Part shown: one piece after another, positions 3,759 to 62,297 of the stretch | Layout of the letters: each line of letters starts with the position of its first letter | Numbering within the stretch: the stretch's first letter is position 1 | Assembly: GCA_903843045.1 (NCBI GenBank) | Contig: CAIMOJ010000046.1 | Span: 95,073-159,072, forward strand | Direction of reading: 5' to 3' | DNA from: Candidatus Uhrbacteria bacterium | Lineage (GTDB): Bacteria > Patescibacteriota > Patescibacteriia > UBA9934 > GWF2-40-263 | DNA: 64,000 bases | Notes under the pieces: model-generated | Database searches by the model: none | Told to the model about the DNA's origin: nothing | The model's input: the letters and a program-made list of their open reading frames with translations, nothing else | Program-made: the position numbers and the translations under genes

Positions 3759-3962
3759 TCAGGACAACTCTTCGATGGCTTCAAGTATGGTTTCGAGCTC
3801 TTTGAATTCGCGCTCGATCTGGTTTTGAACCACCCTTGCCATCCACTTGAGCGACCTGATCTGCCCTTCCTTGCGTTCGCGCATCTCGATCAGGTTCTGG
3901 AGCTGCTGCTCCAGCGTAATCGGCACGACCCGCACTTTGGGCTTGCGCTCATTTGTAAACAT
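3759..3962 (-). CDS. Small coiled-coil protein (67 aa), phage module
   Basis: Strong SD (AGGAGG, 5-nt spacer) before the ATG at 3962. Lies directly downstream of the Sak4-like gene. High heptad/charge content. Confidence 0.45.
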   Translation of the reverse strand: MFTNERKPKVRVVPITLEQQLQNLIEMRERKEGQIRSLKWMARVVQNQIEREFKELETILEAIEELS

Positions 3963-5355: not shown

Positions 5356-8055
<2,700 letters not shown>

Positions 8056-13236: not shown

Positions 13237-14481
13237 ATGTTTCTTTCTGATTTCGATCCGGACCTGACCCGCTCCCTCAACGCCGAACTCCGCCGCCAGC
13301 GCGAGGGGCTCGAGATGATCCCGTCCGAAAACTTCGTGTCGCCCGCCGTGCTCGAGGCGCTTGGCTCCGTCGCCACGAACAAGTACGCCGAAGGATACTC
13401 CGGCAAGCGGTACTACGGCGGCTGCGAGTTCATCGACGAGATCGAGGAGCTCGCGATTGCGCGCGCCAAACAGCTGTTCGGCGCCGAGCACGTGAACGTC
13501 CAGCCGCTTTCCGGAGCTCCCGCGAACATCGCCGCCTATTCGGCCATCCTGAAGCCCGGCGACACGGTCCTCGGGATGGACCTCTCGCACGGCGGCCACC
13601 TCACGCACGGCCATCCGGTCACCTTCGTCGCGGGGATCTACAACTTCATTCGATACAAGACCGCCAAGGACGGGACGCTCGACTACGACAACCTCCGGGC
13701 CATGGCGCTCGAGCACAGGCCGAAGCTGATCCTCGTGGGCTACTCGGCCTACTCGCGCGAGATCGACTACGCGAAGGTGAAGGCGATCGCCGACGAGGTT
13801 GGAGCGCTCACCATGGCCGACATCGCGCACATCGCCGGGCTCATCGCGGGCGGAGAAATGGCAAATCCGGTTCCGCTGTTCGACGTGGTTACGACCACCA
13901 CGCACAAAACGCTCCGCGGACCGCGCGGAGGGATGATCATGTGCAAGGAGGCGTTCGCGAAGGCAATCGACAAGGCGGTGTTCCCAGGGCTCCAGGGCGG
14001 TCCGCACGAGAACGCGATCGCGGCGAAGGCCGTTGCGTTCAAGGAGGCGCTCGAGCCGGCATTCCGGGACTATGCTCGGCAGATTCGGTTGAACGCGAAG
14101 GTTCTCGAACAGGAGTTCCGGTCGCGCGGCTACATGCTCGCGTTCGGAGGGACGGACAACCATCTCCTTCTCGTCGACGTGATGGGATCGAAGGGAGTCA
14201 CGGGGCGGAACGCGCAGGAGGCGCTCGACAAGGCCGGGATCACGGTAAACAAGAACGCGATTCCCGACGACGCGCGCGGACCGATGGATCCTTCGGGGAT
14301 TCGGCTGGGAACGCCGGCGGTCACGACGCGCGGAATGAAGGAAGGCGAGATGAAGCTGATCGCGGGATGGATGGACGCCGCAATCGTCCACGCCGGAGAC
14401 GAAGCAAAGCTCGCCTCGATCCGCGCCGAGGTAAAGGAGCTCACAGACAGGTTCCCGTTGTATCCCGGCCTCGCGTACTAA
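13237..14481 (+). CDS. glyA: Serine hydroxymethyltransferase
   Basis: 414 aa with the SHMT signature (PLP-lysine region [16 protein letters not shown]). -35 TTGTCA upstream. Confidence 0.95.
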
Positions 14482-14531: not shown

Positions 14532-15743
14532 ATGCACGAAATCAAACCAAATTCATCCGCAAAAATCGCTCTCGGCGTCTCAATCGCCGTGATCGTCTTC
14601 GCCCTCGGCGTCGCCGTCGCCCCGGATATCCAAAAGATTCTCCCGAACGTGCCTGATAACGCCGCGCCTCCAGCGACGATCCAGATCGTCTCCGAGGAAT
14701 CCGCGGTCATCGACGCGGTCAAAAAGGCATCCCCCGCGGTCGTCAGCATCATCGCGACCGGCGACGTCCCGAAGCTTGAACGCTGCATGAAGAGCGCGTT
14801 CGGAGGGTTCGGAGGAATGCAGTTCCAAATTCCGTCCACCTGCCAGAACGGAACGGAAAAGCAGCAGCTCAGCGCTGGGTCCGGATATCTCGTCACCGAA
14901 GACGGTTACATCATGACCAACAAGCACGTCGTAAGCGAGGCCGCCGGGACGGAGTACGCGGTCGTGCTGAACGACGACGGCCACAAGGGAAAGAGCGTCG
15001 CCGCGAAGGTGCTCGCGATCGACCCGACGAACGACATCGCCGTCCTAAAGATCGAGGAAACCGGGCTTCCCTTCCTCACGTTCGCGGACTCCGACGCGAT
15101 CCAGGTCGGACAAACCGCCATTGCCATCGGCTATGCGCTCGGACAGTTTGAGAACACGGTCAGCAAGGGCGTCGTCTCCGGCCTGGCCCGTTCGATCAAC
15201 GCGGGTGGTGGCACGTTGGGTTCCGAGCGCCTGTCCGGCATTATCCAGACCGACGCCGCACTCAACCCCGGAAACTCCGGCGGACCGCTGCTCGACATCC
15301 AGGGAAACGTCATCGGCATGAACGTGGCCATGGCAAGCGCGCAAAGCATCGCCTTCGCCCTTCCCGCGAACGACGTGAAGTCCGTGTTCGAAAGCGTGAA
15401 GTCGACGGGCAAGATCGAGCGCGCGTACCTCGGGGTTCGCTACGTCCCGATCGACGCGGATCTTAAGAAGCAGCAGGACCTTGCCTACGACTACGGTGCG
15501 ATCGTCGTCCGCGGCGAGAAGATCACCGACCTCGCCGTCGCCCCGGGCTCCCCGGCCGACAAGGCGGGACTCATTGAAAACGACATCCTTCTCGAGTGGA
15601 ACGGACAGAGGATCGACGAGGATCACGTGATCTCCGACTTGGTGAATCGGGCCAAGGTCGGCGACAGCGTCAGTGTCAAAATCTCGCACAAGGGCGAGGA
15701 GAAGACGGTGACCGTGGTGCTGGCGGCTAGGCCGACGGAATAA
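14532..15743 (+). CDS. HtrA/DegP-family serine protease with PDZ domain
   Basis: Start at MHEIKPNSS. N-terminal TM anchor, trypsin-like catalytic GNSGGPL and a C-terminal PDZ domain. Confidence 0.88.
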   Translation: MHEIKPNSSAKIALGVSIAVIVFALGVAVAPDIQKILPNVPDNAAPPATIQIVSEESAVIDAVKKASPAVVSIIATGDVPKLERCMKSAFGGFGGMQFQIPSTCQNGTEKQQLSAGSGYLVTEDGYIMTNKHVVSEAAGTEYAVVLNDDGHKGKSVAAKVLAIDPTNDIAVLKIEETGLPFLTFADSDAIQVGQTAIAIGYALGQFENTVSKGVVSGLARSINAGGGTLGSERLSGIIQTDAALNPGNSGGPLLDIQGNVIGMNVAMASAQSIAFALPANDVKSVFESVKSTGKIERAYLGVRYVPIDADLKKQQDLAYDYGAIVVRGEKITDLAVAPGSPADKAGLIENDILLEWNGQRIDEDHVISDLVNRAKVGDSVSVKISHKGEEKTVTVVLAARPTE

Positions 15744-15825
15744 GTTTTTGAGAGCATTCGTCGAAAGACGGGTGCTTTTCTTTTTCTTGCCGGAAGGGGT
15801 TTTTTCTGTGGCTGGCTGCCACACC

Positions 15826-16085
15826 GCGTCACTTTCTTTTTGCGGAAAAAGAAAGTAACCAAAGAAAGCCGCCGCCCGGTCGCCGGCCCTGCCGGAGCGA
15901 CCCAGCCAGGCCGCGGAAAGCTGACGGCGGCTTCAGCCGGGCGAGGATTGTCTGAGCGTACGAGCCCGCAGGCGAGAAGCGAGTTCCGCAGCGAGTCAGC
16001 TTTCCGTGGTCTGGCGTAGGAGCGGATGGCCGGGCGGAGCGGTTCTCTTTGGTTACTTTCTCTGTCCGCCAACAGAGAAAGTAAC
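15826..16085. repeat. MITE-like / structured-RNA-like inverted-repeat element (htrA-folD intergenic)
   Basis: Two similar hairpin modules, CTTTCTTTTT-GCGG-AAAAAGAAAGTAAC (around 15826-15858) and CTTTCTCTG-TCCGCCAA-CAGAGAAAGTAAC (around 16056-16085). Long-range imperfect inverted repeat GAAAGTAACCAAAGAAAGCCGCCGCCCGG (15851-15879) versus CCGGGCGGAGCGGTTCTCTTTGGTTACTTTC (16030-16060). These flank a roughly 150-nt GC-rich core. Shadow ORFs on the minus strand here are Arg-rich. Confidence 0.5.
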
Positions 16086-16121
16086 GCGGGTGCAGGGCGC
16101 AGCGCCTGCGGAAAAACACTT

Positions 16122-16150
16122 CAAATTCCGTGACACAAGTCACTTTCCCT
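16122..16150 (+). promoter_or_regulatory. Putative folD promoter (GTGACA-N17-TAACAT)
   Basis: The -10 TAACAT lies about 11 nt before the folD ATG, giving a near-leaderless transcript. Confidence 0.35.
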
Positions 16151-16170
16151 GCTAACATGCGTAGCATCTT

Positions 16171-17037
16171 ATGCTCCACCTCCTCGACGGACGTGCGATC
16201 GGCGCGCGGATCCGTGAAAAAGTGAAGGCGCGCGTCGCGGCAATGGCGGTTTCTCCCGGCCTTGCCGTAATTTTGGTCGGGGACGATCCGGCGTCGCACC
16301 TGTACGACGCGCTTAAGAAAAAAGCTTGCGAGGAGGCCGGGATCCGCTTTGAGCTATTTTTGTACCCAAACGACGAGCCCGAGCAATCGCTGATCGCGAA
16401 GATCGAGGAGCTCAACGCGCGCCACGACGTAACGGGGATCCTGGTCCAGCTCCCCCTCCCGACCCAAAACGCCGACCGTGTCATCGCCGCGATCCGACCG
16501 GATAAGGACGTCGACGGGTTCCATCAGGAAAATCTAAAGGCGCTCCGGGAAGGTCGCCCCGGAATCGTCTCCGCGCTGGCACTCGGCATCATGAAACTCG
16601 TCGACGAGGCAAAGCGAGTTTCCCCTCCTCATAGGGAGGAGGGGTCAGGGGTGGTCGTCGCGCCTCGCGTCGCCATCGTCGGAAGCAACCTCTTCGCCGA
16701 GCCCCTCCGCCACCTCTTCGCGGAACAGCACGCCGACGTCGAGCGCGTCGACCCGAAGGACGACGATCTCGCCGCCAAAACAAAAACCGCGGACGTACTC
16801 GTCGTCGCGGTCGGAAAGCCCGGACTTATCGTCGGTTCGATGGTAAAACCTGGCGCGACCGTCATCGACGTCGGAACGACACGCATGGGAAAACGCATCG
16901 TCGGCGACGTGGACGCCGAGTCCGTCTCATCCGTCGCCGGCGCGCTCAGTCCGGTTCCGGGCGGAGCCGGACCAATGACCGTCGCGATGCTGACGCTGAA
17001 CGTCCTCAAGGCCGCCGAGCTACAAAAAAATCCCTGA
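16171..17037 (+). CDS. folD: Bifunctional methylenetetrahydrofolate dehydrogenase/cyclohydrolase FolD
   Basis: 288 aa FolD with an extra surface-loop peptide VSPPHREEGSGVVV encoded by the palindromic mini-element at 16618-16664. Confidence 0.92.
   Translation: MLHLLDGRAIGARIREKVKARVAAMAVSPGLAVILVGDDPASHLYDALKKKACEEAGIRFELFLYPNDEPEQSLIAKIEELNARHDVTGILVQLPLPTQNADRVIAAIRPDKDVDGFHQENLKALREGRPGIVSALALGIMKLVDEAKRVSPPHREEGSGVVVAPRVAIVGSNLFAEPLRHLFAEQHADVERVDPKDDDLAAKTKTADVLVVAVGKPGLIVGSMVKPGATVIDVGTTRMGKRIVGDVDAESVSSVAGALSPVPGGAGPMTVAMLTLNVLKAAELQKNP
16618..16664 (+). repeat. Intragenic palindromic mini-element, type I, copy 1 (in folD)
   Basis: GTTTCCCCTCCTCATAGGGAGGAGGGGTCAGGGGTGGTCGTCGCGC, with a 9-10-bp perfect hairpin CCCCTCCTC/GAGGAGGGG. 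About 45 of 47 nt identical to the copy at 23036-23083. Confidence 0.8.
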
Positions 17038-27785: not shown

Positions 27786-28901
27786 TTAGGCGCTTTTTTC
27801 TTTTCTCAGTTCCTCCATCAGCCTCAGGTAAAACCGCAGGTTGTGGATCGTCGCCAGCCGCATGGCCAGCATCTCGCCGACCGAGAACAGGTGTCGGAGA
27901 TACGCCCGCGAGACGGTCTTGCACGTCGAGCAGTCGCACCACGCGTCCACCGGCGACTCGTCGAACGTACTGGCCTCGCCGGTCACGTTGAGCTTCTTGT
28001 AGAAATCGGTGGGCCGCTTCGAGAAGTCGATCGTCGTCGGATCCTGAGCCCAGGTGAACAGCGTGCCGTGCCGCGCGTTTCGCGTCGGGATCACGCAGTC
28101 GAACATGTCCACGCCGAGCGAGACGTAATGCACGATCTCCTCCGGCATCCCCCCGCCCATGAAATACCGCGGCTTGTCCGCCGGCATCTTGTCGCAGATG
28201 AACTCCGCGATCCGATACGCGTCCTCCCGCTTCTCCCCGACGGACAGTCCGCCGATCGCATACCCGTCGAACCCGATCTCGACGAGCCCCTCGACCGACT
28301 TCTCGCGAAGGTCCTCGTGCGTCCCGCCCTGGACGATCCCGAACAGATTCTGTCCTGGCGGCAGCGCATCCTTGCACCGCCTCGCCCATCGCAGCGACAG
28401 CTCCATCGCCTGCTCGTACCGCTCGCGCGTCGAGTCGCCGGCCGCGACGTCGTCGAACTGCATCACGATGTCGGACCCGATCGCCGCCTGCATCTGCATC
28501 GACAACTCCGGAGTCAAATGGATCCGCTTCCCATCGATGTGCGACTGGAACGTCACGCCATCCTCGTTCGTCTTGTTCATCTTCGACAGGCTGAAGACCT
28601 GATAGCCACCTGAGTCCGTGATGATCGGCTTGTTCCAACCCATCAGGTGATGGAGACCTCCAAGTTTCTCCATTCCCTCCAACCCCGGACGCAGCAACAG
28701 ATGATACGTGTTCGACAAAACGATCGACGCGCCAAGCGCTTCGACATCCGCCGACGACAGCGTCTTCACCGCCCCCTTGGTCGCGATCGGCATAAAGCAG
28801 GGCGTCTCGACGATTCCATGTGGAAGGGTCAGGCGTCCGCGTCGGGATTTTCCGTTGGTTGAGAGAAGTTCGAACACAGAGAATTTCAAATTGATCAACA
28901 T
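27786..28901 (-). CDS. tgt: Queuine tRNA-ribosyltransferase (tRNA-guanine transglycosylase)
   Basis: 371 aa with the TGT signature (RRGRLTLPHG...ETPCFMP) and zinc site CDCSTC...H. Confidence 0.92.
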   Translation of the reverse strand: MLINLKFSVFELLSTNGKSRRGRLTLPHGIVETPCFMPIATKGAVKTLSSADVEALGASIVLSNTYHLLLRPGLEGMEKLGGLHHLMGWNKPIITDSGGYQVFSLSKMNKTNEDGVTFQSHIDGKRIHLTPELSMQMQAAIGSDIVMQFDDVAAGDSTRERYEQAMELSLRWARRCKDALPPGQNLFGIVQGGTHEDLREKSVEGLVEIGFDGYAIGGLSVGEKREDAYRIAEFICDKMPADKPRYFMGGGMPEEIVHYVSLGVDMFDCVIPTRNARHGTLFTWAQDPTTIDFSKRPTDFYKKLNVTGEASTFDESPVDAWCDCSTCKTVSRAYLRHLFSVGEMLAMRLATIHNLRFYLRLMEELRKEKSA

Positions 28902-28968
28902 ACCTCACGGCTGCAAGGTAAGTTGAACTGTCCAACATACCTTGCAGCCGTGAGGTATGTTGGACAGT
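28889..28968 (-). promoter_or_regulatory. Mutually exclusive hairpins sequestering the tgt SD/AUG (dnaJ-tgt junction)
   Basis: Perfect 25-bp inverted repeat CAACATACCTCACGGCTGCAAGGTA (28896-28920) / TACCTTGCAGCCGTGAGGTATGTTG (28938-28962). In the minus-strand transcript this puts the tgt AUG and the GAGG inside the 3' arm. An alternative 16-bp hairpin AACTGTCCAACATACC/GGTATGTTGGACAGTT uses the 5' arm. Confidence 0.5.
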
Positions 28969-30045
28969 TTACTGTAGCAGGTGGAGCTCTTCCAGCAGCT
29001 TCCGCTGCTCCTTCGACAACTTCGTGGGCGTCACGACTTGAACAATGAACACGTGATCGCCACGACCGTTTCCTGCCGGGACGCCTTTGCCGCGGACACG
29101 GATTTCCGTTCCCGACTGTGTGCCGGGTTCAATCTCGAGTTTCCACTTTCCGTCGATGATCTCCGTATCCACCGTCGCGCCGAGCGCGGCCTGCGTGAAG
29201 CCGAGATTGAGCGACGAGTAAATCGTCGAACCCTCGCGCTCGAAGCGCGTGTCGTTCTTCACGTGGAGACGGACGAACAGGTCGCCCGTTTGTCCCCCGC
29301 GGATCGCCTCGCCGCCGCCGCGAACGCGGAGGGTGTTGCCGTTCTCGACGCCGGACGGGATATGGACCGTCAGCGTCTTTTTTCCGCGGACGATCCCATC
29401 GCCGTGGCACGCCTTGCAGTTCGTCGACGGAACCTTTCCCTCGCCGCGGCACGTTCCGCACGCGACCTTGGACTGGAACGTTCCAAGAATCGTGCGCTGC
29501 TGGACCACCTTCACGCCCTTTCCGCCGCAGTCGTCGCAGTCCCTCATCTTCGTCCCCGGCTCGGCTCCCTTGCCGTCGCATTTCTCGCACGCGTCGAACT
29601 TCGACAGGTGCAATTCCTTGTCGACGCCAAAGATTGAATCCTTGAACGTAAGCTCGGCATCGACCTGGATGTCGTTCCCCCGCGGCGCGGCATGACGACC
29701 TCCTCCCCCGCCGAACATGTTCCCGAACATCTCGCCCAAATCCTCGAACCCACCGCCGCCCTGGAACCCAGAGAAATCAAACCCTCCAAACCCCTGGCCA
29801 CCGCCGAATCCCTGCCCCCCTCCCGGGCTTCCATCAAACGCGGCCGACCCGAACTGGTCGTACTTCTTGCGCTTCTCCGCGTCGCCCACCACCTGGTACG
29901 CCTCGTTGATCTCCTTGAACTTCGCCTCGTCCCCCGTCGGCTTGTCGGGATGATACTGGTGCGCCAGCTTCCGGAACGCAGCCTTAATCTCATCCTGCGA
30001 CGCGGACTTGGAGACGCCGAGCAAATTGTAGAAATCTTTGGCCAT
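28969..30045 (-). CDS. dnaJ: Chaperone DnaJ
   Basis: 358 aa with the J domain (HPD), G/F-rich region and four CxxCxGxG zinc repeats. Confidence 0.95.
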   Translation of the reverse strand: MAKDFYNLLGVSKSASQDEIKAAFRKLAHQYHPDKPTGDEAKFKEINEAYQVVGDAEKRKKYDQFGSAAFDGSPGGGQGFGGGQGFGGFDFSGFQGGGGFEDLGEMFGNMFGGGGGRHAAPRGNDIQVDAELTFKDSIFGVDKELHLSKFDACEKCDGKGAEPGTKMRDCDDCGGKGVKVVQQRTILGTFQSKVACGTCRGEGKVPSTNCKACHGDGIVRGKKTLTVHIPSGVENGNTLRVRGGGEAIRGGQTGDLFVRLHVKNDTRFEREGSTIYSSLNLGFTQAALGATVDTEIIDGKWKLEIEPGTQSGTEIRVRGKGVPAGNGRGDHVFIVQVVTPTKLSKEQRKLLEELHLLQ

Positions 30046-30049
30046 AGGT

Positions 30050-30295
30050 TCAATGTCCTCCTCCGCCGCGGTGAATCGACAGCATCAAGAGCTCGATCAT
30101 CAGTCCGACAAAGAGGACCACGATCACCAGCGTCGCGAGATGCCACTGCGCGATGCCATACAACGAGTGGACCGACTTCGAACACGAAGACGGGGGCGGG
30201 ATCATCCCGCCCGCCGTCTTCACGCATCCTTCCTGAGATTCCGCGAACGCGACGATCTGCTCGTCAAACGACCGCGCCACGTGCGTCTGAGTCAT
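30050..30295 (-). CDS. Small membrane protein (81 aa) between dnaK and dnaJ
   Basis: ATG 2 nt after the dnaK stop. High GC3. One strong TM helix (WHLATLVIVVLFVGLMIELLMLSI). Ends GGGGH 5 nt before the dnaJ ATG. Confidence 0.5.
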   Translation of the reverse strand: MTQTHVARSFDEQIVAFAESQEGCVKTAGGMIPPPSSCSKSVHSLYGIAQWHLATLVIVVLFVGLMIELLMLSIHRGGGGH

Positions 30296-30297
30296 AT

Positions 30298-32181
30298 TTA
30301 TTTCTCTTCGGCCTTCGCGTCAATCGGCTCATCGTTCGTCTTTTCCTCCGAACCCTTGGCCCCCTCGGAACCCTCGGTCCCCTTATTCTCGTACATCTTC
30401 GCCCCAACCTTCTGCGCCGCGTCCGACAGCGTGTCCGCGGCCTTCTTGATGGCCTCGTGGTCGTCGCCGTCCTTCACAGCCTTCAGCGCCGCGATCTTTT
30501 CCTCGATGTCCTTCTTTTCCTCGTCGGTCGCCTTGTCGCCGGCGTCCTTCATCATCTTCTCGGCGGTATAGATCATGTTGTCCGCCAGGTTGCGATGCTC
30601 GATCATCTCCTTCTTCTTCTTGTCCTCGTCGGCATGCTCCTCGGCATCGCGCTTCATGCGCTCGATCTCGTCCTTGGAGAGGCCGGTCGACGCGGTAATC
30701 GTGATCTGCTGGCTCTTGCCGGTGCCTTTGTCCGTCGCAGAGACGTTCAGGATTCCGTTCGCGTCGATGTCGAACTTCACCTCCACCTGCGGCACGCCGC
30801 GCGGCGCCATCGGGATTCCGGAGAGGGTGAAGTGTCCGAGCGGCTTGTTGTCCGCGGCCATCTCGCGCTCGCCCTGGAGAACGACGATTTCGACGGACGA
30901 CTGGTTGTCCGCGGCCGTCGAGAAGACCATCGCCTTCGACGTCGGGATCGTGGTGTTGCGCTCGATCAGCTTCGTCGACACGCCGCCCATCGTCTCGATG
31001 CCGAGCGACAGCGGGGTCACGTCGAGCAGGAGCACGTCCTTCACCTCGCCCTGCAGCACGCCGCCCTGAACCGCCGCGCCGACCGCGACCACCTCGTCCG
31101 GGTTCACCGTGATGTTCGGCTTCTTGCCAAAGAAATCCTCCACGGCCTTCTGCACCATCGGCATGCGCGTCATTCCGCCCACCATGACGATCTCGTTGAT
31201 GTCGCCCTTGTCCATCTTTGCGTCCGCAAGCGCCTTCTTCACCGGACCGAGCGTCTTTTCCACGAGCGGGCGAACGAGCTCTTCCAGTTTCGATCGCGAC
31301 AGCGAAAGCGACAGATGCTTCGGGCCGTTGGCGTCCGACGTGATGAACGGCTGGTTGACCTCCGTCTGCTGGGCCGTCGACAATTCAATCTTGGCACGCT
31401 CGGCGGCATCCTTGATGCGCTGCAGCGCGAGCGGATCCTTTCCGAGGTCGATTCCCTCGGCCTTTCGGAACTCGTCCACGATCCAATCGATAATACAGCG
31501 GTCGAAGTCATCTCCGCCAAGGTGCGTGTCGCCGTTGGTCGACTTCACTTCGACGGTGTCAGCGGAAACGTCGAGCACGGAAACGTCGAACGTTCCGCCC
31601 CCGAGGTCGTACACCATCACCTGCTCGCCCTTCTTCTTGTCGAATCCGTAGGCAAGCGCGGCAGCCGTCGGCTCGTTGATGATGCGCAGAACTTCGAGTC
31701 CGGCGATTTCGCCCGCAACCTTGGTCGCGGCGCGCTGGGCGTCGTCGAAGTACGCCGGAACGGTGATGACCGCCTGCGTGATCTTCTCCCCGAGCTTCTC
31801 CTCCGCGTCCGCCTTGAGCTTCCCAAGGATCATCGCCGAGATCTCCTCCGGCGTGTAATCCGTTCCCGACATGGTAATCGCGATCCCGTCGCCCTTCTTC
31901 ACGATCTTGTACGGCATCGTCTTCATGTCGCGCTGCACCTCGGCGTCGTCAAACCGGCGGCCGATCAGACGCTTGATCGAAAACAGCGTGCTCTCCGCGT
32001 TCGTCACGGCCTGACGCTTCGCAGGTGCTCCAACGAGACGCTCGCCCGTCTTCGTCACGGCGACCATCGAGGGAGTCGTCCGCGCGCCTTCGCGATTTTC
32101 CAAAACCTTCGGCTGTCCGCCTTCAATGATGGACATGCACGAGTTCGTCGTTCCAAGGTCGATTCCAAGAATCTTTGCCAT
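30298..32181 (-). CDS. dnaK: Chaperone DnaK (Hsp70)
   Basis: 627 aa with the Hsp70 signatures IDLGTTNS and DLGGGTFD. Confidence 0.97.
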
Positions 32182-32191
32182 AAAAATATTG

Positions 32192-32677
32192 TTATTTGTT
32201 TACGATGACCTTCCCCGGCCTCACGATCTTGCCTCCCATCTTCCATCCGCGCGCGACGACCTCGACGATCGCGTTCGGGGCGACCTTCTCGTCCGCTCGC
32301 TCGCCGACCGCGTCGTGCAGGTTCGCGTCGAACGGGTCTCCGACTTCGCCGAACGGTTCCACCCCCATCTGGAGAAGGACCTCGTCGAGCTGGGTCTGGA
32401 CGAACAGGATGCCCATGAGCCAGTTCTTCAGCTTCGCGTCGATCCCCTCCGGGACGAACTTCACGGCGGTGTCGAAGTTGTCGATCACCGGGATGATCCG
32501 GCTTGCCGCGTCGGCCGTGGCCGCCGCGCGCATCTCGACGCGCTCGCGTCCCTGCTCCTTCTTCAGGTTGTCGTAATCCGCGAGGGCGCGTTTCCATCCC
32601 GCAAGATACTCGGCTGCCTTGTCCTCGACAGGTGTCTCGACAGTCGGCTCGACCGTCACGTCTTGTTCGTCGCTCAT
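32192..32677 (-). CDS. grpE: Nucleotide exchange factor GrpE
   Basis: Start at MSDEQDVTV (ATG 32677), overlapping the hrcA stop. GrpE coiled-coil plus beta domain. Confidence 0.9.
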
Positions 32678-33387
32678 AGAGAATCGTCTAGAATTTCTTG
32701 AATGTCCGTAACGAGTCCGAGGTTCCTCCCATAGTCCATCCGCATGGGGCCGATCAATCCGAGGATGCCAATCTGTCCGTTTGGCAGCCGACACTTCACC
32801 ATCACCGCGCTCATGTCCTTGCCGAACGGGTTCTCGCTGCCGATGAGAACCTGCGGCTCGCTCGTCATGCGGTCGAACACCTCGCCGACCAGCTGGTCGA
32901 AGCGGTCGAGCATCCGGGAAAGTTCCTGGACGACCACGATGTCGCTGAAGTCGGGTTTGCCCACGAGGTTGGCGACGCCCGAGTAATAGCTGTTGCGCGG
33001 ATCGACCGCGACGATCGCCATCTCGCCCGACAGCTCCATGAGCGTCCGGGCCAGGTCGCGCATGTCGGGCTCTCCGGCTCCGGTCGAGCGGCCGTCCGCG
33101 ACCGACTTCCGGAGCTGGTCGCTGGCCGCGTGTCCGGGCTCCGCGGACACGAAGTTCTGGAGATAGTAGACGTACGCCCTCTCGGTGGGTATCCGTCCGG
33201 CCGACGTGTGCGGCTGGACGATGAATCCCGCATCCTCGAGCGCGGCCATCTCGCTGCGGATGGTGGCGGGCGACACGTTGCTCCCCGACAGCTCCGCGAC
33301 CAGGCGAGACCCGACCGGTTGCGCCGATCGGATATACTCGTCCACGATCGCCTTCAAAATGGCCTCTTGCCGTGGTTCCAGACGCAT
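32674..33387 (-). CDS. hrcA: Heat-inducible transcription repressor HrcA (short form)
   Basis: 237 aa. N-terminal winged helix ILKAIVDEYIRSAQPVGSR...SPATIRSEMAALE. Confidence 0.9.
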   Translation of the reverse strand: MRLEPRQEAILKAIVDEYIRSAQPVGSRLVAELSGSNVSPATIRSEMAALEDAGFIVQPHTSAGRIPTERAYVYYLQNFVSAEPGHAASDQLRKSVADGRSTGAGEPDMRDLARTLMELSGEMAIVAVDPRNSYYSGVANLVGKPDFSDIVVVQELSRMLDRFDQLVGEVFDRMTSEPQVLIGSENPFGKDMSAVMVKCRLPNGQIGILGLIGPMRMDYGRNLGLVTDIQEILDDSL

Positions 33388-33397
33388 AAAATCAAAA

Positions 33398-33424
33398 TTA
33401 GCACTCTCATTGTACGAGTGCTAA
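33398..33424 (-). promoter_or_regulatory. CIRCE operator (TTAGCACTC-N9-GAGTGCTAA) with embedded -10
   Basis: Perfect consensus inverted repeat 11 nt upstream of the hrcA ATG. -35 TTGACA at 33431-33436 and -10 TACAAT inside the N9 spacer. Confidence 0.9.
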
Positions 33425-33460
33425 TTCATCGTGTCAAGGCTGAGAAAAACGGCATGCGCG

Positions 33461-35119
33461 CTATCGGTCCAAGGCCAGTTTCTGCCAGGACAAACGTCGC
33501 GTTTTCTTTTCTGACAGCAACTCGCGCAACTTCTCTCCCCCGAGCACCGTCGGAATGATCACGAACGTCGCACCGGCCGCGTAACACTTCTCAGCCTCGT
33601 CCTTCGTCCGCGCCGACACGACGGCCGTTCCGGCGAATTTCTCGCCGCGAAGATAACCGAGAATCTCGAGCGAAACGCTCACGTCCGGAATGGTCGACAC
33701 GATGAACTTCGCGCGCTCGACCCCGATCTCCTCGAGAAAGCTGTCGTCGCCCGCGTCGCCGTAAATGGCCGGGATGCCGACCGCGGTGAGGTCGCGAATC
33801 ACGATCGGGTCGAAGTCGACCACCGCGAACGGCTGGCGCAGTTCCTCGAGCGCGGAAAGGGCCGCCGTGCCGATGTCGTGCAGGCCGAAGAGATACGTCT
33901 TCACCTCCGGATGGACGACCTTGTGCTCGCGCGAAAGCGACCGTGCCGGCTCCATGAATCGAAACACCGGGCGAAGGATGTCATAGATGGCCGCGTTATG
34001 CTGGATGACGAGCGACGAGGTAGCGATCGTCACGAGCCCGACTGTCGTCGCAAGCGTGAGAATCGACGGATCGATATGGCCGAGCGCAATTCCCGCCGCG
34101 ATCACGATGAACGAGAACTCGGAGATCTGCGCGGCCGTGGTCCCGGAAAGGAACCCTGTGCGCGGATGGTAGCCGAGCGCGCGCATCACGAGCATGGCAA
34201 GGATCGGGTTGCCAACGAGGACGTAGAGCGAGAAGACGATCGTCGGAACGACGAGCGAGCCGACGGACGAGACGTTGAGGTGCGTTCCGAGGACCACGAA
34301 GAAGATCAGCAGGAAGAAGTCGCGCAACGACCGGATGCGCGCGCCGATCTCGCGTTCGAACACCGTTCCCGAAAGCGTTATCCCGGCGATGAGCGCGCCC
34401 ATCTCCACGCCGAATCCGAACCAGACAAGCAGTCCGGCGATGAGAAAGCACCAGGCGACGGAGAAGACGAACAGGAGCTCCTGCGACTTGGCTGCGTATG
34501 CGACGAGACGCGGGACGACGTATGCGGACACGACCATCAGGACGGGGACGAGGAATGCGATCTTGATCAGCGTCTGCGCGATGATATCCGGCAGGCTTGC
34601 CCCGCTCCCGATGGCGCCGAGGCCGAGCAGGATGAACATGGCGATGAAGTCCTGCACGAGGAGGAACCCCACGCTGATGCGCCCGTACAGCGTGTTGAGC
34701 TCGTCCTTGTCCGACAGCAGCTTCACGATCACGATCGTGCTCGAGAACGAGAACGCGACCGCCACGTACAGCGACGTAACTGTCGTGAGCCCGACGAGAC
34801 GTCCGATCACGAACCCAACCACCGACGTCACGAGAACCTGCCCGACCCCCGTCGCAAGCGCGATCCCGCCCACGTCCTTCATCCGCCGCCAGTTCAGCCC
34901 GAGCCCGACCGTGAACAGCAGGAAGGCGACGCCAATCTTCGACAGAGCCTCAAACGTCTCCGGATTTTTCGTCAGCGCGAACACGCTCGGCCCCACGAGA
35001 ATTCCCGTCACGATATACGCGATCACGAGCGGAAGTCGCAAACGCGAAACCACCATCGCGAGCGATGCCGCGAGGACGACGACGGTTCCGATCTCAAAAA
35101 ACAATTCCTGCAGGAGCAT
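33461..35119 (-). CDS. Kef-type K+/H+ antiporter (CPA2) with C-terminal RCK/TrkA-N domain
   Basis: Start at MLLQELFFEIGT (ATG 35119). About 12 TM helices plus a Rossmann-like domain (LFGLHDIGTAA). -10 TATACT upstream. Confidence 0.85.
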   Translation of the reverse strand: MLLQELFFEIGTVVVLAASLAMVVSRLRLPLVIAYIVTGILVGPSVFALTKNPETFEALSKIGVAFLLFTVGLGLNWRRMKDVGGIALATGVGQVLVTSVVGFVIGRLVGLTTVTSLYVAVAFSFSSTIVIVKLLSDKDELNTLYGRISVGFLLVQDFIAMFILLGLGAIGSGASLPDIIAQTLIKIAFLVPVLMVVSAYVVPRLVAYAAKSQELLFVFSVAWCFLIAGLLVWFGFGVEMGALIAGITLSGTVFEREIGARIRSLRDFFLLIFFVVLGTHLNVSSVGSLVVPTIVFSLYVLVGNPILAMLVMRALGYHPRTGFLSGTTAAQISEFSFIVIAAGIALGHIDPSILTLATTVGLVTIATSSLVIQHNAAIYDILRPVFRFMEPARSLSREHKVVHPEVKTYLFGLHDIGTAALSALEELRQPFAVVDFDPIVIRDLTAVGIPAIYGDAGDDSFLEEIGVERAKFIVSTIPDVSVSLEILGYLRGEKFAGTAVVSARTKDEAEKCYAAGATFVIIPTVLGGEKLRELLSEKKTRRLSWQKLALDR

Positions 35120-45524: not shown

Positions 45525-45544
45525 AGGGTTATGGGGTCCGGAGG

Positions 45545-45592
45545 GTCGAAGGTTCGAAGAGCCGCGGTTCTTCGAACCTTCGACCCTATCCT
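45545..45592. repeat. GGTCGAAGG-family palindrome (18-bp stem hairpin) between ftsI and murF
   Basis: GGGTCGAAGGTTCGAAGAGCCGCGGTTCTTCGAACCTTCGACCC. The same core motif occurs at 10452-10500 and 26718-26760. Confidence 0.5.
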
Positions 45593-61280: not shown

Positions 61281-62297
61281 CTAGCGCGATGAGAATATCC
61301 GCCTCGCCTCGTTCCACAGTCCCGGATCCCCGTGCTTCTTCAGCCAAAACCACCACTCCGCGCCCCAGAGGTTCGTCTCGGAAATGCCCGTGCGCGCGGC
61401 GAAGGCGACGTTCTCGGCGAGGTCGCGCGGGGTAAAGTAGGTCGCCCACTCGGCCGGGGCATTGTTCGCGATCGGCTCGCCGAACCAGGGTTCGGCCTGC
61501 AGTTCGGAAATGCCCACCTCGCCTGCGAACGGCCTGACGGCAAGGGCGCGGACGCGATAGACCCAGGCGGGAATCGGATAGTGGAAATAGCCGAACGTGG
61601 GGCTCCACGTGGTGCGGTAGAGCGAGATCCCGAGATCGTCGACGGGACCCGCGACGGGAAGCCATGCCTCCAGTTCCCCGCTGACCGTCGCCGCGATCGG
61701 GTGTCTGCCATCGGTTTGGCGAACGAGATCAATCTCGCGCCGCCACTCGGTCGCGTCGGGCTTCGGACACACGCCGAAGTCGAACAGCGGCTCGTTCTCC
61801 ACCTGCCAGCGAGAGAGCGCGGGACTGTTCTGATAGCGCGTAACGACGCCCCCGAGAAATGCCTCCAACGCCTCGTACCGCTTCGGGGCGTCGCCAGCCT
61901 CGGCCCAGTCCGGAACGAAGCATTCCGGCCACCGCGGCACTTTCATCCCAATCGCCAGCGTCACCGAAGCTCCGCGTTTCTCCGCCTCGCCCATCATCCA
62001 GTCCACGTCGTCCCAATGAAACTCGCCTTGGCGCGGCTCCACGTCCGACCAGTACACCGGAATTCGAAACCGTCGCACGCCGACGTCGTCCAGCAGCGCC
62101 GTAAACGTCTCCCGCGAATCCAGCCCAAGCTCCCGCGCGTGAATCGTAGAAAACGTCACGCCCAACTTCTGTCGCGCCGGCACCTCCGCCCAAACCGCCA
62201 ACCCAAACGCCGCCGCAACGATCAAAAATCCGACGGCAACGTGCCTCTTTTCGTATTTCGTTACTTTCGTAATATGTTTCGCACTTCGTAACCTCAT
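61281..62297 (-). CDS. Membrane-anchored glycoside hydrolase, GH clan A (GH5-like)
   Basis: Start at MRLRSAKHI (ATG 62297). Signal anchor VAVGFLIVAAAFGLAVWA and catalytic NEP motif WQVENEPLFDF. The listed longer N-terminus (TTG start) is an Arg-rich shadow. Confidence 0.65.
   Translation of the reverse strand: MRLRSAKHITKVTKYEKRHVAVGFLIVAAAFGLAVWAEVPARQKLGVTFSTIHARELGLDSRETFTALLDDVGVRRFRIPVYWSDVEPRQGEFHWDDVDWMMGEAEKRGASVTLAIGMKVPRWPECFVPDWAEAGDAPKRYEALEAFLGGVVTRYQNSPALSRWQVENEPLFDFGVCPKPDATEWRREIDLVRQTDGRHPIAATVSGELEAWLPVAGPVDDLGISLYRTTWSPTFGYFHYPIPAWVYRVRALAVRPFAGEVGISELQAEPWFGEPIANNAPAEWATYFTPRDLAENVAFAARTGISETNLWGAEWWFWLKKHGDPGLWNEARRIFSSR

What the first reader, a model, noticed from the sequence alone, without database searches (positions are those of the whole stretch)
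15826..16085. MITE-like / structured-RNA-like element between htrA and folD
About 260 nt carry two homologous hairpin modules (CTTTCTTTTT-GCGG-AAAAAGAAAGTAAC and CTTTCTCTG-TCCGCCAA-CAGAGAAAGTAAC). A long-range imperfect inverted repeat of about 29 nt (GAAAGTAACCAAAGAAAGCCGCCGCCCGG versus CCGGGCGGAGCGGTTCTCTTTGGTTACTTTC) encloses a roughly 150-nt GC-rich core with further local hairpins. No credible ORF is present. The folD promoter lies downstream of the element, so it is not the folD leader. Candidates are a small RNA gene (6S-like closing stem), a non-autonomous transposable element with terminal inverted repeats, or a complex terminator/insulator.
Basis: seen in the sequence. Interest (0 to 1): 0.55.

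Follow-up and report, generated by a model that had tools for sequence, protein, structure and literature searches.

The report
Truncated copy of hairpin-rich mobile repeat
The odd 260-base stretch between htrA and folD is a partly deleted copy of a non-coding, hairpin-rich repeat element that occurs many times in related genomes and, in recognisable form, in distant bacteria and phages; I found no name for this family.

Summary
The nested inverted repeats exist and fold far better than shuffles (z about -10). The element is wider than reported, about 15776-16122.

It is not a folD leader, 6S RNA or riboswitch. Rfam gives nothing, and closer and more distant relatives have glyA-folD without it.

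It is one internally deleted copy of a roughly 590-bp two-armed repeat. One sister genome holds at least 9 loci of it. It lies in opposite orientation at this same locus in another relative, and it is present or absent at syntenic sites.

Each arm has three parts: a long hairpin with a conserved apical motif (UGUYUGAGC...GCGAGUU), a U-rich tract, and a conserved palindrome (GTTACTTTCTTTG..CAAAGAAAGTAAC). The same parts occur in Ralstonia, Burkholderia, Paraburkholderia, Pasteurella multocida, many MAGs and viral contigs.

Stems covary strongly. G-U pairs far outnumber A-C, always on the strand that reads outward, so a single strand (RNA or ssDNA) is what folds.

No neighbouring protein recurs, no target duplication was resolved, and no name was found in the literature.

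Best reading: a non-autonomous, MITE-like element that moves or acts through a single-stranded form. This copy is probably an inert passenger or an extra terminator between htrA and folD. The mobilising enzyme is unknown.

The parts
15750..15779 (+). htrA intrinsic terminator stem-loop. This is a host feature, not part of the element; the element starts directly after it.
   Evidence: Terminator-like site. The same hairpin follows glyA in L008, which lacks the element. In other loci a different host terminator hairpin sits in the same position.
15776..15807 (+). T-rich outer left end (TTTTCTTTTTCTTGCCGGAAGGGGTTTTTTCT).
   Evidence: Homologous sequence lies at the left end of at least 6 non-orthologous copies, while the preceding hairpins differ. 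BLAST similarity to other copies starts here.
15808..15822 (+). Outer hairpin h0, left (GTGGCTGGCTGCCAC).
   Evidence: Read. Present in all full copies; the stem sequence varies while pairing is kept.
15828..15859 (+). Subterminal palindrome h1, left (GTCACTTTCTTTTT-GCGG-AAAAAGAAAGTAAC), followed by CAAAGAAAG at 15860-15868.
   Evidence: I5. The C-A mismatch on the + strand is a G-U pair on the - strand, which is the outward-reading strand for a left end.
15876..15881 (.). Deletion junction. About 250 nt (the second arm's long hairpin plus the AT-rich centre) that are present in full copies are missing here. The junction lies in a short sequence (CCGGTC) shared by both arms.
   Evidence: blastn (W 7-138 aligns with L004 7-136; W 133-427 aligns with L004 364-675). 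Alignment with three full copies.
15869..16042 (+). Long hairpin of the surviving ('alpha') arm, read on the + strand.
   Evidence: Covariance model R1, built from 33 units, matches 15892-16033 at 140.9 bits, E 3e-34, and this is the only hit in the window.
15905..15925 (+). Stem P1, 5' strand, pairing with 15995-16015.
   Evidence: I2. Across 33 units, 97.8% of cells are paired, 19 of 21 pairs show compensatory changes, and 0 of 500 shuffles reach this.
15928..15939 (+). Small hairpin P2 (CGGC-TTCA-GCCG).
   Evidence: Read. Other units have GTCC-ATCA-GGAC, GTCCGAC-GAAC-GTCGGAC or TCCCGCC-GAA-GGCGGGA at the same place.
15941..15992 (+). Conserved apical core: GCGAGGATTGTCTGAGC (15941-15957), a variable hairpin P3, then GCGAGTTCCGCAGC (15979-15992).
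   Evidence: Invariant in all units retrieved. A shorter form, CTGTYTGAGC..GCGAGTT, sits at the hairpin apex in the Ralstonia and viral copies.
15995..16015 (+). Stem P1, 3' strand.
16043..16051 (+). U-rich tract TTCTCTTTG, directly after the long hairpin.
   Evidence: Scored terminator-like together with the preceding stem, and likewise on the sense strand of both arms of a full copy.
16052..16085 (+). Subterminal palindrome h1, right (GTTACTTTCTCTGT-CCGCCA-ACAGAGAAAGTAAC).
   Evidence: I4. The module is conserved in Ralstonia, Burkholderia, Pasteurella and viral contigs.
16092..16109 (+). Outer hairpin h0, right (GCAGGGCGCAGCGCCTGC).
   Evidence: Conserved in the right ends of non-orthologous copies, including the Patescibacteria and gammaproteobacterial-MAG copies.
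16110..16122 (+). A-rich outer right end (GGAAAAACACTTC). Similarity to non-orthologous copies stops here.
16130..16158 (+). folD promoter-like site. This is a host feature outside the element.
   Evidence: It is conserved with the orthologous locus L072 but not with non-orthologous copies.

Best explanation
The feature is one decayed copy of a non-coding, two-armed, hairpin-rich repeat element of about 590 bp. It behaves as a non-autonomous mobile element (MITE-like).

Shown:
- A full copy reads: T-rich end, outer hairpin h0, palindrome h1, CAAAGAAA, long hairpin (core on the minus strand), AT-rich centre, long hairpin (core on the plus strand), TTTCTTTG, h1, h0, A-rich end.
- The window copy has lost one long hairpin and the centre through a deletion between short direct repeats.
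- The family is dispersed and multi-copy in sister genomes. It is present or absent at syntenic sites, occurs in either orientation at this very locus, and never has a recurrent neighbouring gene.
- Its stems covary, and the wobble pairs lie on the strand that reads outward from the centre in both arms.

Inferred:
- The arms act as folded single strands. These are most simply the strand that ends 3' at each terminus of the element (ssDNA during mobilisation), and less likely outward transcripts.
- The conserved apical motif and the h1 palindrome would be the recognition sites for an enzyme supplied in trans, which I could not identify.
- In this window the copy sits exactly between the htrA terminator and the folD promoter. 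It probably does nothing for the cell beyond adding hairpin-plus-U-tract barriers to read-through.
For: Structure is real:
- z-scores are -10.1 and -8.6.

Not a conserved local gene:
- Relatives with 85%, 72% and 67% FolD identity have glyA-folD with no element.

Full two-armed copies at the same locus:
- They occur in L004/L005 and L006/L007. The whole block is inverted between them: 80.8% identity as reverse complement over 546 nt against 66.5% direct.

Multi-copy:
- The core pattern found 63 genome loci against about 8 expected by chance (my estimate); about 50 carry the further motifs.
- These include 9 loci in Uhrbacteria MAG ELA555, 5 in a second Uhrbacteria MAG, and 6 in one betaproteobacterial MAG.
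- Common ends were defined by copy-to-copy similarity.

Presence or absence:
- L058 has a 435-nt copy where window 30044-30093 has 49 nt.
- B. cepacia has a 274-nt aceF-lpdA spacer with h1, against 43 nt in P. sabiae.

Deletion derivatives:
- They occur elsewhere (L042; Ralstonia CFBP 8695).

No partner gene:
- ORF clustering around 63 genome loci and 14 viral loci gave only housekeeping genes and spurious ORFs inside the repeat.

Single-strand folding:
- P1 is 97.8% paired, 19 of 21 pairs are compensatory, 0 of 500 shuffles reach this, and slid controls give 34-46%.
- G-U against A-C counts are 52 to 6 in P1 and 10 to 2 in h1.
- 54 of 57 units fold better on the sense strand, by 12.5 kcal/mol on average.

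Breadth:
- The same architecture occurs in Ralstonia GMI1000, Pasteurella multocida, B. cepacia and viral contigs.

No known RNA family:
-.
Against: - No target-site duplication could be resolved; the filled/empty pairs are too diverged.
- No autonomous relative or transposase was found, so mobility is inferred from distribution and not from mechanism.
- Copies within a genome are only about 80-90% identical, so there is no sign of recent bursts.
- Adjacency to terminators may reflect where insertions are tolerated in a compact genome rather than targeting.
- Strong conservation of an internal loop motif across phyla is unusual for a MITE and fits a functional RNA at least as well.
- The G-U excess could in principle come from strand-biased deamination rather than selection.
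- Only one copy is present in the 64-kb window itself.
- Many genome hits are MAGs whose taxon labels may be unreliable.
Confidence: 0.7

Rival explanations
1. Each arm is a gene for a structured small RNA, or a self-processing RNA such as a new ribozyme. It would be transcribed outward from the centre, and the DNA repeat family would be the footprint of a mobile RNA gene.
For: - Compensatory changes are strong and G-U pairs are strand-specific.
- A conserved multi-helix junction (P1, P2, P3) carries invariant junction strands.
- The motif is kept from Patescibacteria to Proteobacteria and phage contigs.
- The long hairpin is followed by a U-rich tract, as in a terminator.
- In 6 of 7 single-arm phage copies the arm has the orientation of the upstream gene (my reading).
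Against: - No sigma-70-like promoter is conserved in the centre of the Uhrbacteria or Ralstonia copies. The one Pasteurella match is within chance expectation.
- The wobble evidence puts h1 in the same folded strand as the long hairpin, so the U-tract cannot be the 3' end, and nothing terminator-like follows h0.
- Single units lie in both orientations relative to flanking genes, about 12 sense to 6 antisense by crude gene calls.
- Loops are not the GNRA or UNCG types that are common in RNAs.
- No Rfam family matches.
Confidence: 0.17
2. It is a host-selected transcription terminator or insulator that separates htrA from folD and happens to be built from repeats.
For: - It sits exactly between the htrA terminator and the folD promoter.
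- The long hairpins are flanked by A-rich and U-rich tracts, so they score as terminators on the sense strand of both arms.
- Beta-type copies enclose classic A-tract, hairpin, T-tract terminators.
Against: - htrA already has its own canonical terminator.
- Relatives manage with a 107-nt glyA-folD spacer.
- Terminator function explains neither the invariant apical motif, nor the h1 palindrome conserved across phyla, nor the dispersed copies in either orientation.
Confidence: 0.08
3. It is a cis-regulatory leader of folD, such as a folate or ZTP-type riboswitch or an attenuator in a one-carbon metabolism operon (glyA-htrA-folD).
For: It lies upstream of folD and downstream of glyA, a classic setting for ZTP and THF riboswitches, and the RNA fold is very stable.
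Against: - No ZTP, THF or other riboswitch match appears even at E up to 10.
- The promoter-like site lies downstream of the element.
- The same element sits next to unrelated genes in dozens of loci.
- It is absent upstream of folD in relatives.
Confidence: 0.02
4. It is an invertible DNA switch (inverton) that a site-specific recombinase flips between the two h1 palindromes.
For: - The whole block is inverted between two related genomes at the same locus.
- The h1 modules resemble recombinase core sites: 13-14-bp inverted arms around a short spacer.
- One assembly breaks at the element border.
Against: - The h1 spacer length varies from 3 to 8 nt, and the outer base pairs covary as in a hairpin, not as in a fixed core site.
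- The inverted block includes the h1 modules and outer ends themselves.
- Independent assemblies of the same species show one orientation only (L001-L003, L004/L005, L006/L007).
- No recombinase gene recurs nearby.
Confidence: 0.03

Closest known systems
Bacterial MITEs that fold into long hairpins (ERIC/IRU, Correia/NEMIS, RUP, BOX, Rickettsia RPE); properties from my own knowledge and the review PMC10969869
   Same: The element is small (up to about 600 bp), non-coding, intergenic and multi-copy. It has long inverted arms and shows insertion/deletion polymorphism between strains. It gives rise to internally deleted derivatives and can potentially act on transcription termination or mRNA stability.
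   Different: No target-site duplication and no parent insertion sequence were identified. The most conserved parts are an internal loop motif and a subterminal palindrome, not the extreme termini. These are shared across phyla, whereas known MITE families are restricted to a genus or family. Wobble pairs are strand-specific.
REP / REPIN elements mobilised by RAYT (Y1 HUH) transposases
   Same: Both are extragenic palindromes arranged as inverted doublets that form hairpins in a single strand. Both often lie next to terminators, and structure is conserved more than sequence. The enzyme is supplied in trans from a single-copy gene elsewhere.
   Different: REPs are 20-40 nt and species-specific, whereas the arms here are about 250 nt with several nested hairpins. 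No RAYT gene was seen in any locus held, and the family occurs in phage contigs and in Patescibacteria.
IS200/IS605-derived palindrome-associated elements (PATEs)
   Same: Both have subterminal hairpins recognised in single-stranded DNA, strand-specific folding, and no obvious target duplication.
   Different: IS200/IS605 ends carry both hairpins on the same strand and lack terminal inverted repeats. Here the two arms are inverted copies, and the folding strand switches at the centre.
[quoted passage not shown]
   Same: Both show a GC-rich hairpin flanked by A-rich and U-rich tracts and are located at gene ends.
   Different: This element is much longer and multi-helix, with an invariant loop motif and an extra palindrome that termination does not need.
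6S RNA
   Same: Both have a long closing stem around a less-paired centre.
   Different: There is no match to the 6S models, the element is not single-copy, it is not syntenically conserved, and it has no promoter.

Membership tests
MITE (non-autonomous DNA transposon) | Small size and no coding capacity | tested here: met
   The full copy is about 590 bp and the window copy about 345 bp. No gene is called in L001, L004 or L006. Recurrent ORFs are only spurious frames inside the repeat.
MITE (non-autonomous DNA transposon) | Many dispersed copies in a genome | tested here: met
   There are 9 loci in MAG ELA555, 5 in a second Uhrbacteria MAG, and 2-18 places per Ralstonia megaplasmid. Only one copy lies in the 64-kb window, and the rest of this genome was not available.
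MITE (non-autonomous DNA transposon) | Terminal inverted repeats | tested here: met
   The two halves of full copies are reverse complements at about 67% over about 540 nt. The ends (T-run, h0, h1) are inverted copies of each other.
MITE (non-autonomous DNA transposon) | Target-site duplication | tested here: inconclusive
   Flanks of about 10 copies show no shared direct repeat. The two filled/empty pairs are too diverged to place the junction.
MITE (non-autonomous DNA transposon) | Presence/absence polymorphism at orthologous sites | tested here: met
   L058 against window 30044-30093; B. cepacia against P. sabiae at aceF-lpdA; opposite orientation at htrA-folD.
MITE (non-autonomous DNA transposon) | An autonomous relative with the same ends that encodes a transposase | tested here: not met
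   No transposase or other recurrent gene lies within 2-2.5 kb of 63 genome loci and 14 viral loci. Only arm pairs within one 8-kb locus could be seen.
REP/REPIN-RAYT | A 20-40-nt imperfect palindrome, with a RAYT gene flanked by REPs in the same genome | tested here: not met
   The unit size is an order of magnitude larger, and no Y1 transposase gene is in the loci held. Whole genomes were not searchable, so the RAYT part is not fully testable.
IS200/IS605-type element | No terminal inverted repeats; both end hairpins on the same strand | tested here: not met
   Long inverted arms are present, and the favoured folding strand differs between the left and right arm.
6S RNA | Match to the Rfam 6S covariance models; one conserved copy per genome | tested here: not met
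   No hit appears at the gathering threshold or at E up to 10. The element is absent from the syntenic locus in relatives.
ZTP/THF or other riboswitch upstream of folD | Match to the family model; location in the 5' leader of the regulated gene | tested here: not met
   No Rfam match. The promoter-like site is downstream of the element, and the element occurs next to unrelated genes.
Intrinsic terminator | GC-rich stem-loop followed by a U tract on the transcribed strand | tested here: met
   The scan flags 16028-16044 plus CTCTTTGGTT in the window, and the equivalent site on the sense strand of both arms of L072. Whether it functions as a terminator is not testable with these tools.
Structured RNA (generic) | Compensatory base changes beyond controls, with strand-specific wobble pairs | tested here: met
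   The same pattern is expected for a folded DNA single strand, so this does not decide between RNA and ssDNA.
Structured RNA (generic) | Own promoter or evidence of a discrete transcript | tested here: not met
   No conserved sigma-70-like site lies in the centre. Transcript data are not available here.

The most novel reading that the evidence does not exclude
The arm (long hairpin with the invariant apex UGUYUGAGC-hairpin-GCGAGUU, a U-rich tract, and the GTTACTTTCTTTG..CAAAGAAAGTRAC hairpin) is an undescribed functional single-stranded nucleic-acid module. It is shared by Patescibacteria, Proteobacteria and phages. It could be a new self-processing or guide-type RNA, or the recognition structure of a new class of hairpin-dependent (single-strand) mobile element. 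Such an element may capture cargo between two arms: a tRNA gene in L056 and a cytochrome-c-like gene in L025.
Probability: 0.2. Interest if true: 0.85.

Novelty: new variant of a known kind. Interest (0 to 1): 0.58.

Why it matters
For this window, the finding removes a false lead: the element is not a folD regulator or a housekeeping small RNA. The family behind it is more interesting than this copy. It is a non-coding element whose internal loop motif and subterminal palindrome are recognisable from candidate-phyla-radiation bacteria to Ralstonia, Burkholderia, Pasteurella and phage contigs. It has textbook covariation, the folding strand switches at the centre of the element, no associated protein was found, it has no entry in Rfam, and I found no name for it in the literature. 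If the single-strand reading is right, the family marks either an unknown mobilisation mechanism or an unknown RNA class. It also occurs in cultured, genetically tractable hosts (R. pseudosolanacearum GMI1000, P. multocida, B. cepacia ATCC 25416), so it can be tested directly. It is also a practical annotation issue, because these elements break assemblies and generate spurious ORF calls (L011).

Tried and rejected
- **Rfam, window:** at gathering thresholds only two tRNAs were found. The region at E up to 10 gave only noise; the best hit was hya RNA at 17.9 bits against a cut-off of 56.8.
- **Rfam, other copies:** 17 proteobacterial, Patescibacteria and viral loci, and the Ralstonia and Pasteurella copies, gave nothing but sub-threshold microRNA-hairpin matches.
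- **Other copies in the window:** blastn, the repeat finder and the covariance model found none. The fourth GAAAGTAAC at 62260 is a chance 9-mer.
- **blastn against INPHARED phages:** no match for the window element or a viral arm.
- **blastn against complete E. coli genomes:** no match, so blastn with the Pasteurella copy detected no similarity to anything in E. coli, ERIC copies included.
- **blastn of a 'Bordetella' MAG arm against PLSDB:** no match.
- **Partner protein:** clustering of all ORFs within 2-2.5 kb of every copy gave only ABC ATPases, LeuRS, regulators and similar housekeeping genes.
- **Orientation relative to flanking genes:** mixed.
- **Global alignment of all 57 units:** unusable for consensus folding because stem lengths differ between lineages, so I restricted the analysis to 33 alignable units.
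- **Target-site duplication:** not resolvable.
- **Promoter scans of the centre:** nothing conserved.
- **Literature:** searches for the core and h1 strings, for CPR MITEs, and for Ralstonia and Pasteurella repeats found no name.
- **Considered from memory and dropped:** hammerhead (no CUGANGA...GAAA), k-turn / C-D box (no 3-nt bulge geometry), integron attC (no RYYYAAC/GTTRRRY), dif/lox-type core site (variable spacer), group IIC intron (no intron domains, two-fold symmetry), and single-strand origin ssoA (TAGCGA is present only in some units).
Full report
**1. Observation**

- The repeat finder reports two local palindromes: 15828-15859 (14-nt arms, 93% complementary) and 16052-16085 (14-nt arms, 100%). 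They are also 72% identical as direct repeats.
- It reports a 38-nt long-range inverted repeat at 84% (15835-15872 against 16039-16076), an outer pair (15824-15837 against 16076-16089), and an inner 21-nt stem at 90% (15905-15925 against 15995-16015).
- GAAAGTAAC occurs four times in the window against 0.11 expected. Three occurrences are in the element. The fourth, at 62260, has no further similarity.
- As a single strand, 15815-16100 folds into one long branched hairpin. The + strand gives -173.6 kcal/mol, against -118.4 +/- 5.4 for shuffles (z -10.1). The - strand gives -155.6 (z -8.6).
- The flanking genes are glyA (13237-14481), htrA (ending at 15743) and folD (16171-17037), all on the + strand.
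- A canonical htrA terminator lies at 15750-15779, and a promoter-like site for folD at 16130-16158.

**2. Not a known RNA and not a local regulator**
- Rfam at gathering thresholds finds only two tRNAs in the window. At E up to 10 the region gives only noise.
- FolD homologues place the organism among Candidatus Uhrbacteria.
- Three other assemblies of the same species carry an identical intergenic region. One contig ends a few bases before the left palindrome.
- Relatives with 85%, 72% and 67% FolD identity have glyA followed by folD, directly or after an unrelated gene. Their spacers are short and lack the element.
- The element is therefore neither an ancestral leader of folD nor a conserved gene.

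**3. A truncated copy of a larger two-armed element**
- Two closer relatives (97% and 87% FolD identity) have 675-nt and 636-nt htrA-folD spacers.
- These hold two long hairpins in inverted orientation around an AT-rich centre.
- Between the two genomes the whole block of about 540 nt is inverted: 80.8% identity as reverse complement over 546 nt, against 66.5% direct. The end modules change sides with it.
- The window aligns to the left end and to the right arm of the 97% relative, and lacks about 250 nt in between.
- The junction (about 15876-15881) falls in a CCGGTC shared by both arms. I read this as a deletion between short direct repeats (inference from the sequences).
- Similar internally deleted copies exist elsewhere (L042; Ralstonia CFBP 8695).

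**4. The family**
- Every unit shares GCGAGGATTGTCTGAGC, a variable hairpin, and GCGAGTTCCGCAGC.
- A scan of one genome per species with GCGAGGATTGTC-N(18-48)-GCGAGTTCC returned 63 loci, against roughly 8 expected by chance (my estimate from database size).
- About a dozen are coding-sequence coincidences. The rest also carry TGAGC and GCAGC and are flanked by complementary stems.
- They include 9 loci in Uhrbacteria MAG ELA555, which is the 97% relative. They also include 5 in a second Uhrbacteria MAG that lacks the element at folD, other Patescibacteria, and 6 loci in one betaproteobacterial MAG. Further hits are Stagnimonas, Caldimonas, Thauera, Pseudohongiella and others.
- All of these records are MAGs, so I do not rely on their taxon labels.
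- Many loci hold a pair: a minus-strand unit on the left and a plus-strand unit 200-650 nt to the right. This is the arrangement seen at folD.
- Copy-to-copy similarity within ELA555 defines the full element as: T-rich end, hairpin h0, CCGCG, palindrome h1, CAAAGAAA, 'beta' long hairpin (core on the minus strand), AT-rich centre (sometimes with a further nested hairpin insert), 'alpha' long hairpin (core on the plus strand), TCTCTTTG, h1, CGCGG, h0, A-rich end.
- The two arms are diverged inverted copies (about 67%), and each keeps its identity across copies.
- In most Uhrbacteria copies the beta end starts directly after the T-run of a host terminator whose stem differs from locus to locus. 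In such compact genomes this may reflect where insertions are tolerated rather than targeting.
- By this definition the window element runs from about 15776 to about 16122.

**5. Mobility evidence**
- The family is dispersed and multi-copy, and occurs in both orientations at one locus.
- Two presence/absence pairs support mobility. L058 is syntenic with window 29251-34350 and has a 435-nt single-arm copy where the window has 49 nt. B. cepacia ATCC 25416 has a 274-nt aceF-lpdA spacer containing h1, where Paraburkholderia sabiae has 43 nt.
- Both pairs are too diverged to show a target duplication, and none is visible in the flanks of about 10 copies.
- No protein family recurs within 2-2.5 kb of the 63 genome loci or the 14 viral loci.
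- The element is therefore non-autonomous, and its partner, if any, is unknown.

**6. Evidence for a folded single strand**
- On 33 alignable units, the 21-bp stem P1 is paired in 97.8% of cells, and 19 pairs show compensatory double changes. The covariation score is 0.743 against 0.238 +/- 0.015 in shuffles (0 of 500 reach it). Slid controls give 34-46% pairing.
- The small hairpin P2, the variable hairpin P3 and the outer 3-5 pairs of h1 also change in a compensatory way: GTTAC/GTAAC, CCTAC/GTAGG, CATAC/GTATG, CTGAC/GTCAG, CCCAC/GTGGG.
- Wobble pairs are one-sided: 52 G-U against 6 A-C in P1, and 10 against 2 in h1.
- 54 of 57 distinct units fold better on the strand that reads GCGAGGAUUGUC..., by 12.5 kcal/mol on average.
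- In two-armed copies this favoured strand is the bottom strand for the left arm and the top strand for the right arm. In each case it is the strand that reads outward and ends 3' at the terminus.
- This excludes a purely double-stranded role such as a protein operator or cruciform. It points to RNA transcribed outward, or to single-stranded DNA.
- I lean towards DNA for three reasons. No promoter is conserved in the centre. h1 folds on the same strand beyond the U-tract. The strand switch at the centre is what a transposon's two 3' ends would show. This step is inference.
- Strand-biased deamination could contribute to the G-U excess.

**7. Breadth**
- The h1 module with its upstream TTTCTTTG occurs in 14 IMG/VR viral contigs; my estimate of the chance expectation is near zero.
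- In each of these contigs a hairpin precedes h1. Some carry the full core (L087). Others carry a short form at the apex, GGGGAA-CTGTTTGAGCGAAGCGAGTT-TTCCCC (L079, L084, L086).
- In AT-rich phage DNA the arm stands out as a GC-rich island (L081).
- blastn against PLSDB then found the same two-armed architecture in cultured bacteria. These include the Ralstonia solanacearum complex (2-6 places per megaplasmid, 18 in Ralstonia sp. RRA.1); in GMI1000 the copy lies at NC_003296.1 756882-757337. They also include Paraburkholderia (9-16 places), Burkholderia, Caballeronia, Variovorax and Pasteurella multocida PF13.
- None of these copies carries any annotation.
- A covariance model of the Uhrbacteria and gamma units finds the window copy (E 3e-34) as the only hit in the window. 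It also finds units in proteobacterial MAGs, including several that the pattern had missed, but it does not reach the short-core versions.
- The link to Ralstonia, Pasteurella and most phage copies therefore rests on three shared features: h1, the TTTCTTTG tract, and the apical motif in the same order and polarity.

**8. Function of this copy**
- It lies between a complete terminator and the folD promoter, so it interrupts nothing.
- The long hairpin followed by TTCTCTTTG scores as terminator-like, so it may reinforce insulation between htrA and folD.
- Having lost one arm and the centre, it is probably no longer mobile (inference).

**9. Comparison with known systems**
- It works most like the hairpin-forming bacterial MITEs and like REPINs.
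- It meets the MITE criteria of size, absence of coding capacity, copy number, inverted arms and insertion polymorphism.
- It fails or leaves open two criteria: target duplication and an autonomous parent.
- It differs from all of them in three ways: the cross-phylum conservation of an internal loop motif and a subterminal palindrome, the nested multi-hairpin arms, and the strand switch.
- It is not a member of 6S RNA, riboswitch or IS200/IS605-type families (see the membership table).
- I found no name for it. String searches for the core and h1 returned nothing, and topical searches returned only general reviews and a 2008 catalogue of stem-loop repeat families, whose unnamed Bordetella and Pasteurella entries I cannot match to it.

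**10. Verdict**
- The sRNA and riboswitch readings are not supported, and the terminator reading holds only as a side effect.
- The copy itself is an ordinary decayed repeat. The family is an apparently undescribed and unusually widespread variant of the hairpin-repeat kind.
- There is a modest chance (about 0.2) that it hides a new single-strand-dependent mobility mechanism or a new RNA class.

Noticed in passing
window 30044-30093: This is the empty site that corresponds to a 435-nt single-arm copy of the same repeat family in the syntenic Patescibacteria contig L058 (785-1220). That copy lies between two same-strand genes.
   Followed up: yes
window 28888-28970: A 41-nt-arm inverted repeat (88% complementary, 1 nt between the arms) lies in the spacer between two minus-strand ORFs. 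It is unrelated in sequence to the element studied. It may be a long terminator or another repeat.
   Followed up: partly
window 45542-45587: A near-perfect 23+23-nt palindrome (AGGGTCGAAGGTTCGAAGAGCCG / CGGTTCTTCGAACCTTCGACCCT) lies between two minus-strand ORFs.
   Followed up: partly
window 14532-15743 (htrA) compared with L008, L010, L012: htrA is present between glyA and folD only in the sub-clade that also carries the repeat. More distant relatives have glyA-folD directly, or with a HAD-family hydrolase gene in between. The same terminator hairpin (GCCCGTCGAAAGACGGGTG) follows htrA or glyA respectively.
   Followed up: partly
L003 position 1 (= window about 15821): A 60-kb contig from another assembly of the same species ends a few bases before the left palindrome. 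This fits an assembly break at a repeat or a long hairpin.
   Followed up: no
L056 3597-4293; L025 6481-7643: In a betaproteobacterial MAG, two head-to-head arms enclose a tRNA gene (3851-3922). In another MAG, two arms 1.1 kb apart enclose a cytochrome-c-like ORF (CGSCH motif). These may be cargo between arms or independent insertions.
   Followed up: partly
L081 3334-3500; L077 27-180: In two large viral contigs the h1 palindrome is followed directly by iteron-like tandem repeats (catagagaattttagataactc x5; ggtaggaaaaatttcacgaatc x4). This suggests a position next to a replication origin.
   Followed up: no
L033, L050, L057, L069, L042, L011, L024 (centre of the element): Several Uhrbacteria copies carry an extra 60-100-nt insert in the centre, with the hairpin CCCCTCCTCATAGGGAGGAGGGG. 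This may be a second small element nested in the first.
   Followed up: no
L011 3571-4065: A gene caller predicted a 164-aa protein with no Pfam domain that runs through the repeat and overlaps the folD start. It is very likely a spurious ORF created by the element.
   Followed up: partly
L016 about 7040-7110 and L025 about 7680-7750: Beta-type copies enclose a classic bidirectional terminator (AAAGAAAATC, GC hairpin, GATTTTCTT) inside their outer stem. Other copies of the same type lack it at the same position.
   Followed up: no
window 15882-15926: There is a weak sub-threshold resemblance to the Rfam hya RNA motif (17.9 bits against a cut-off of 56.8, E 1.4). I judge it to be chance.
   Followed up: yes
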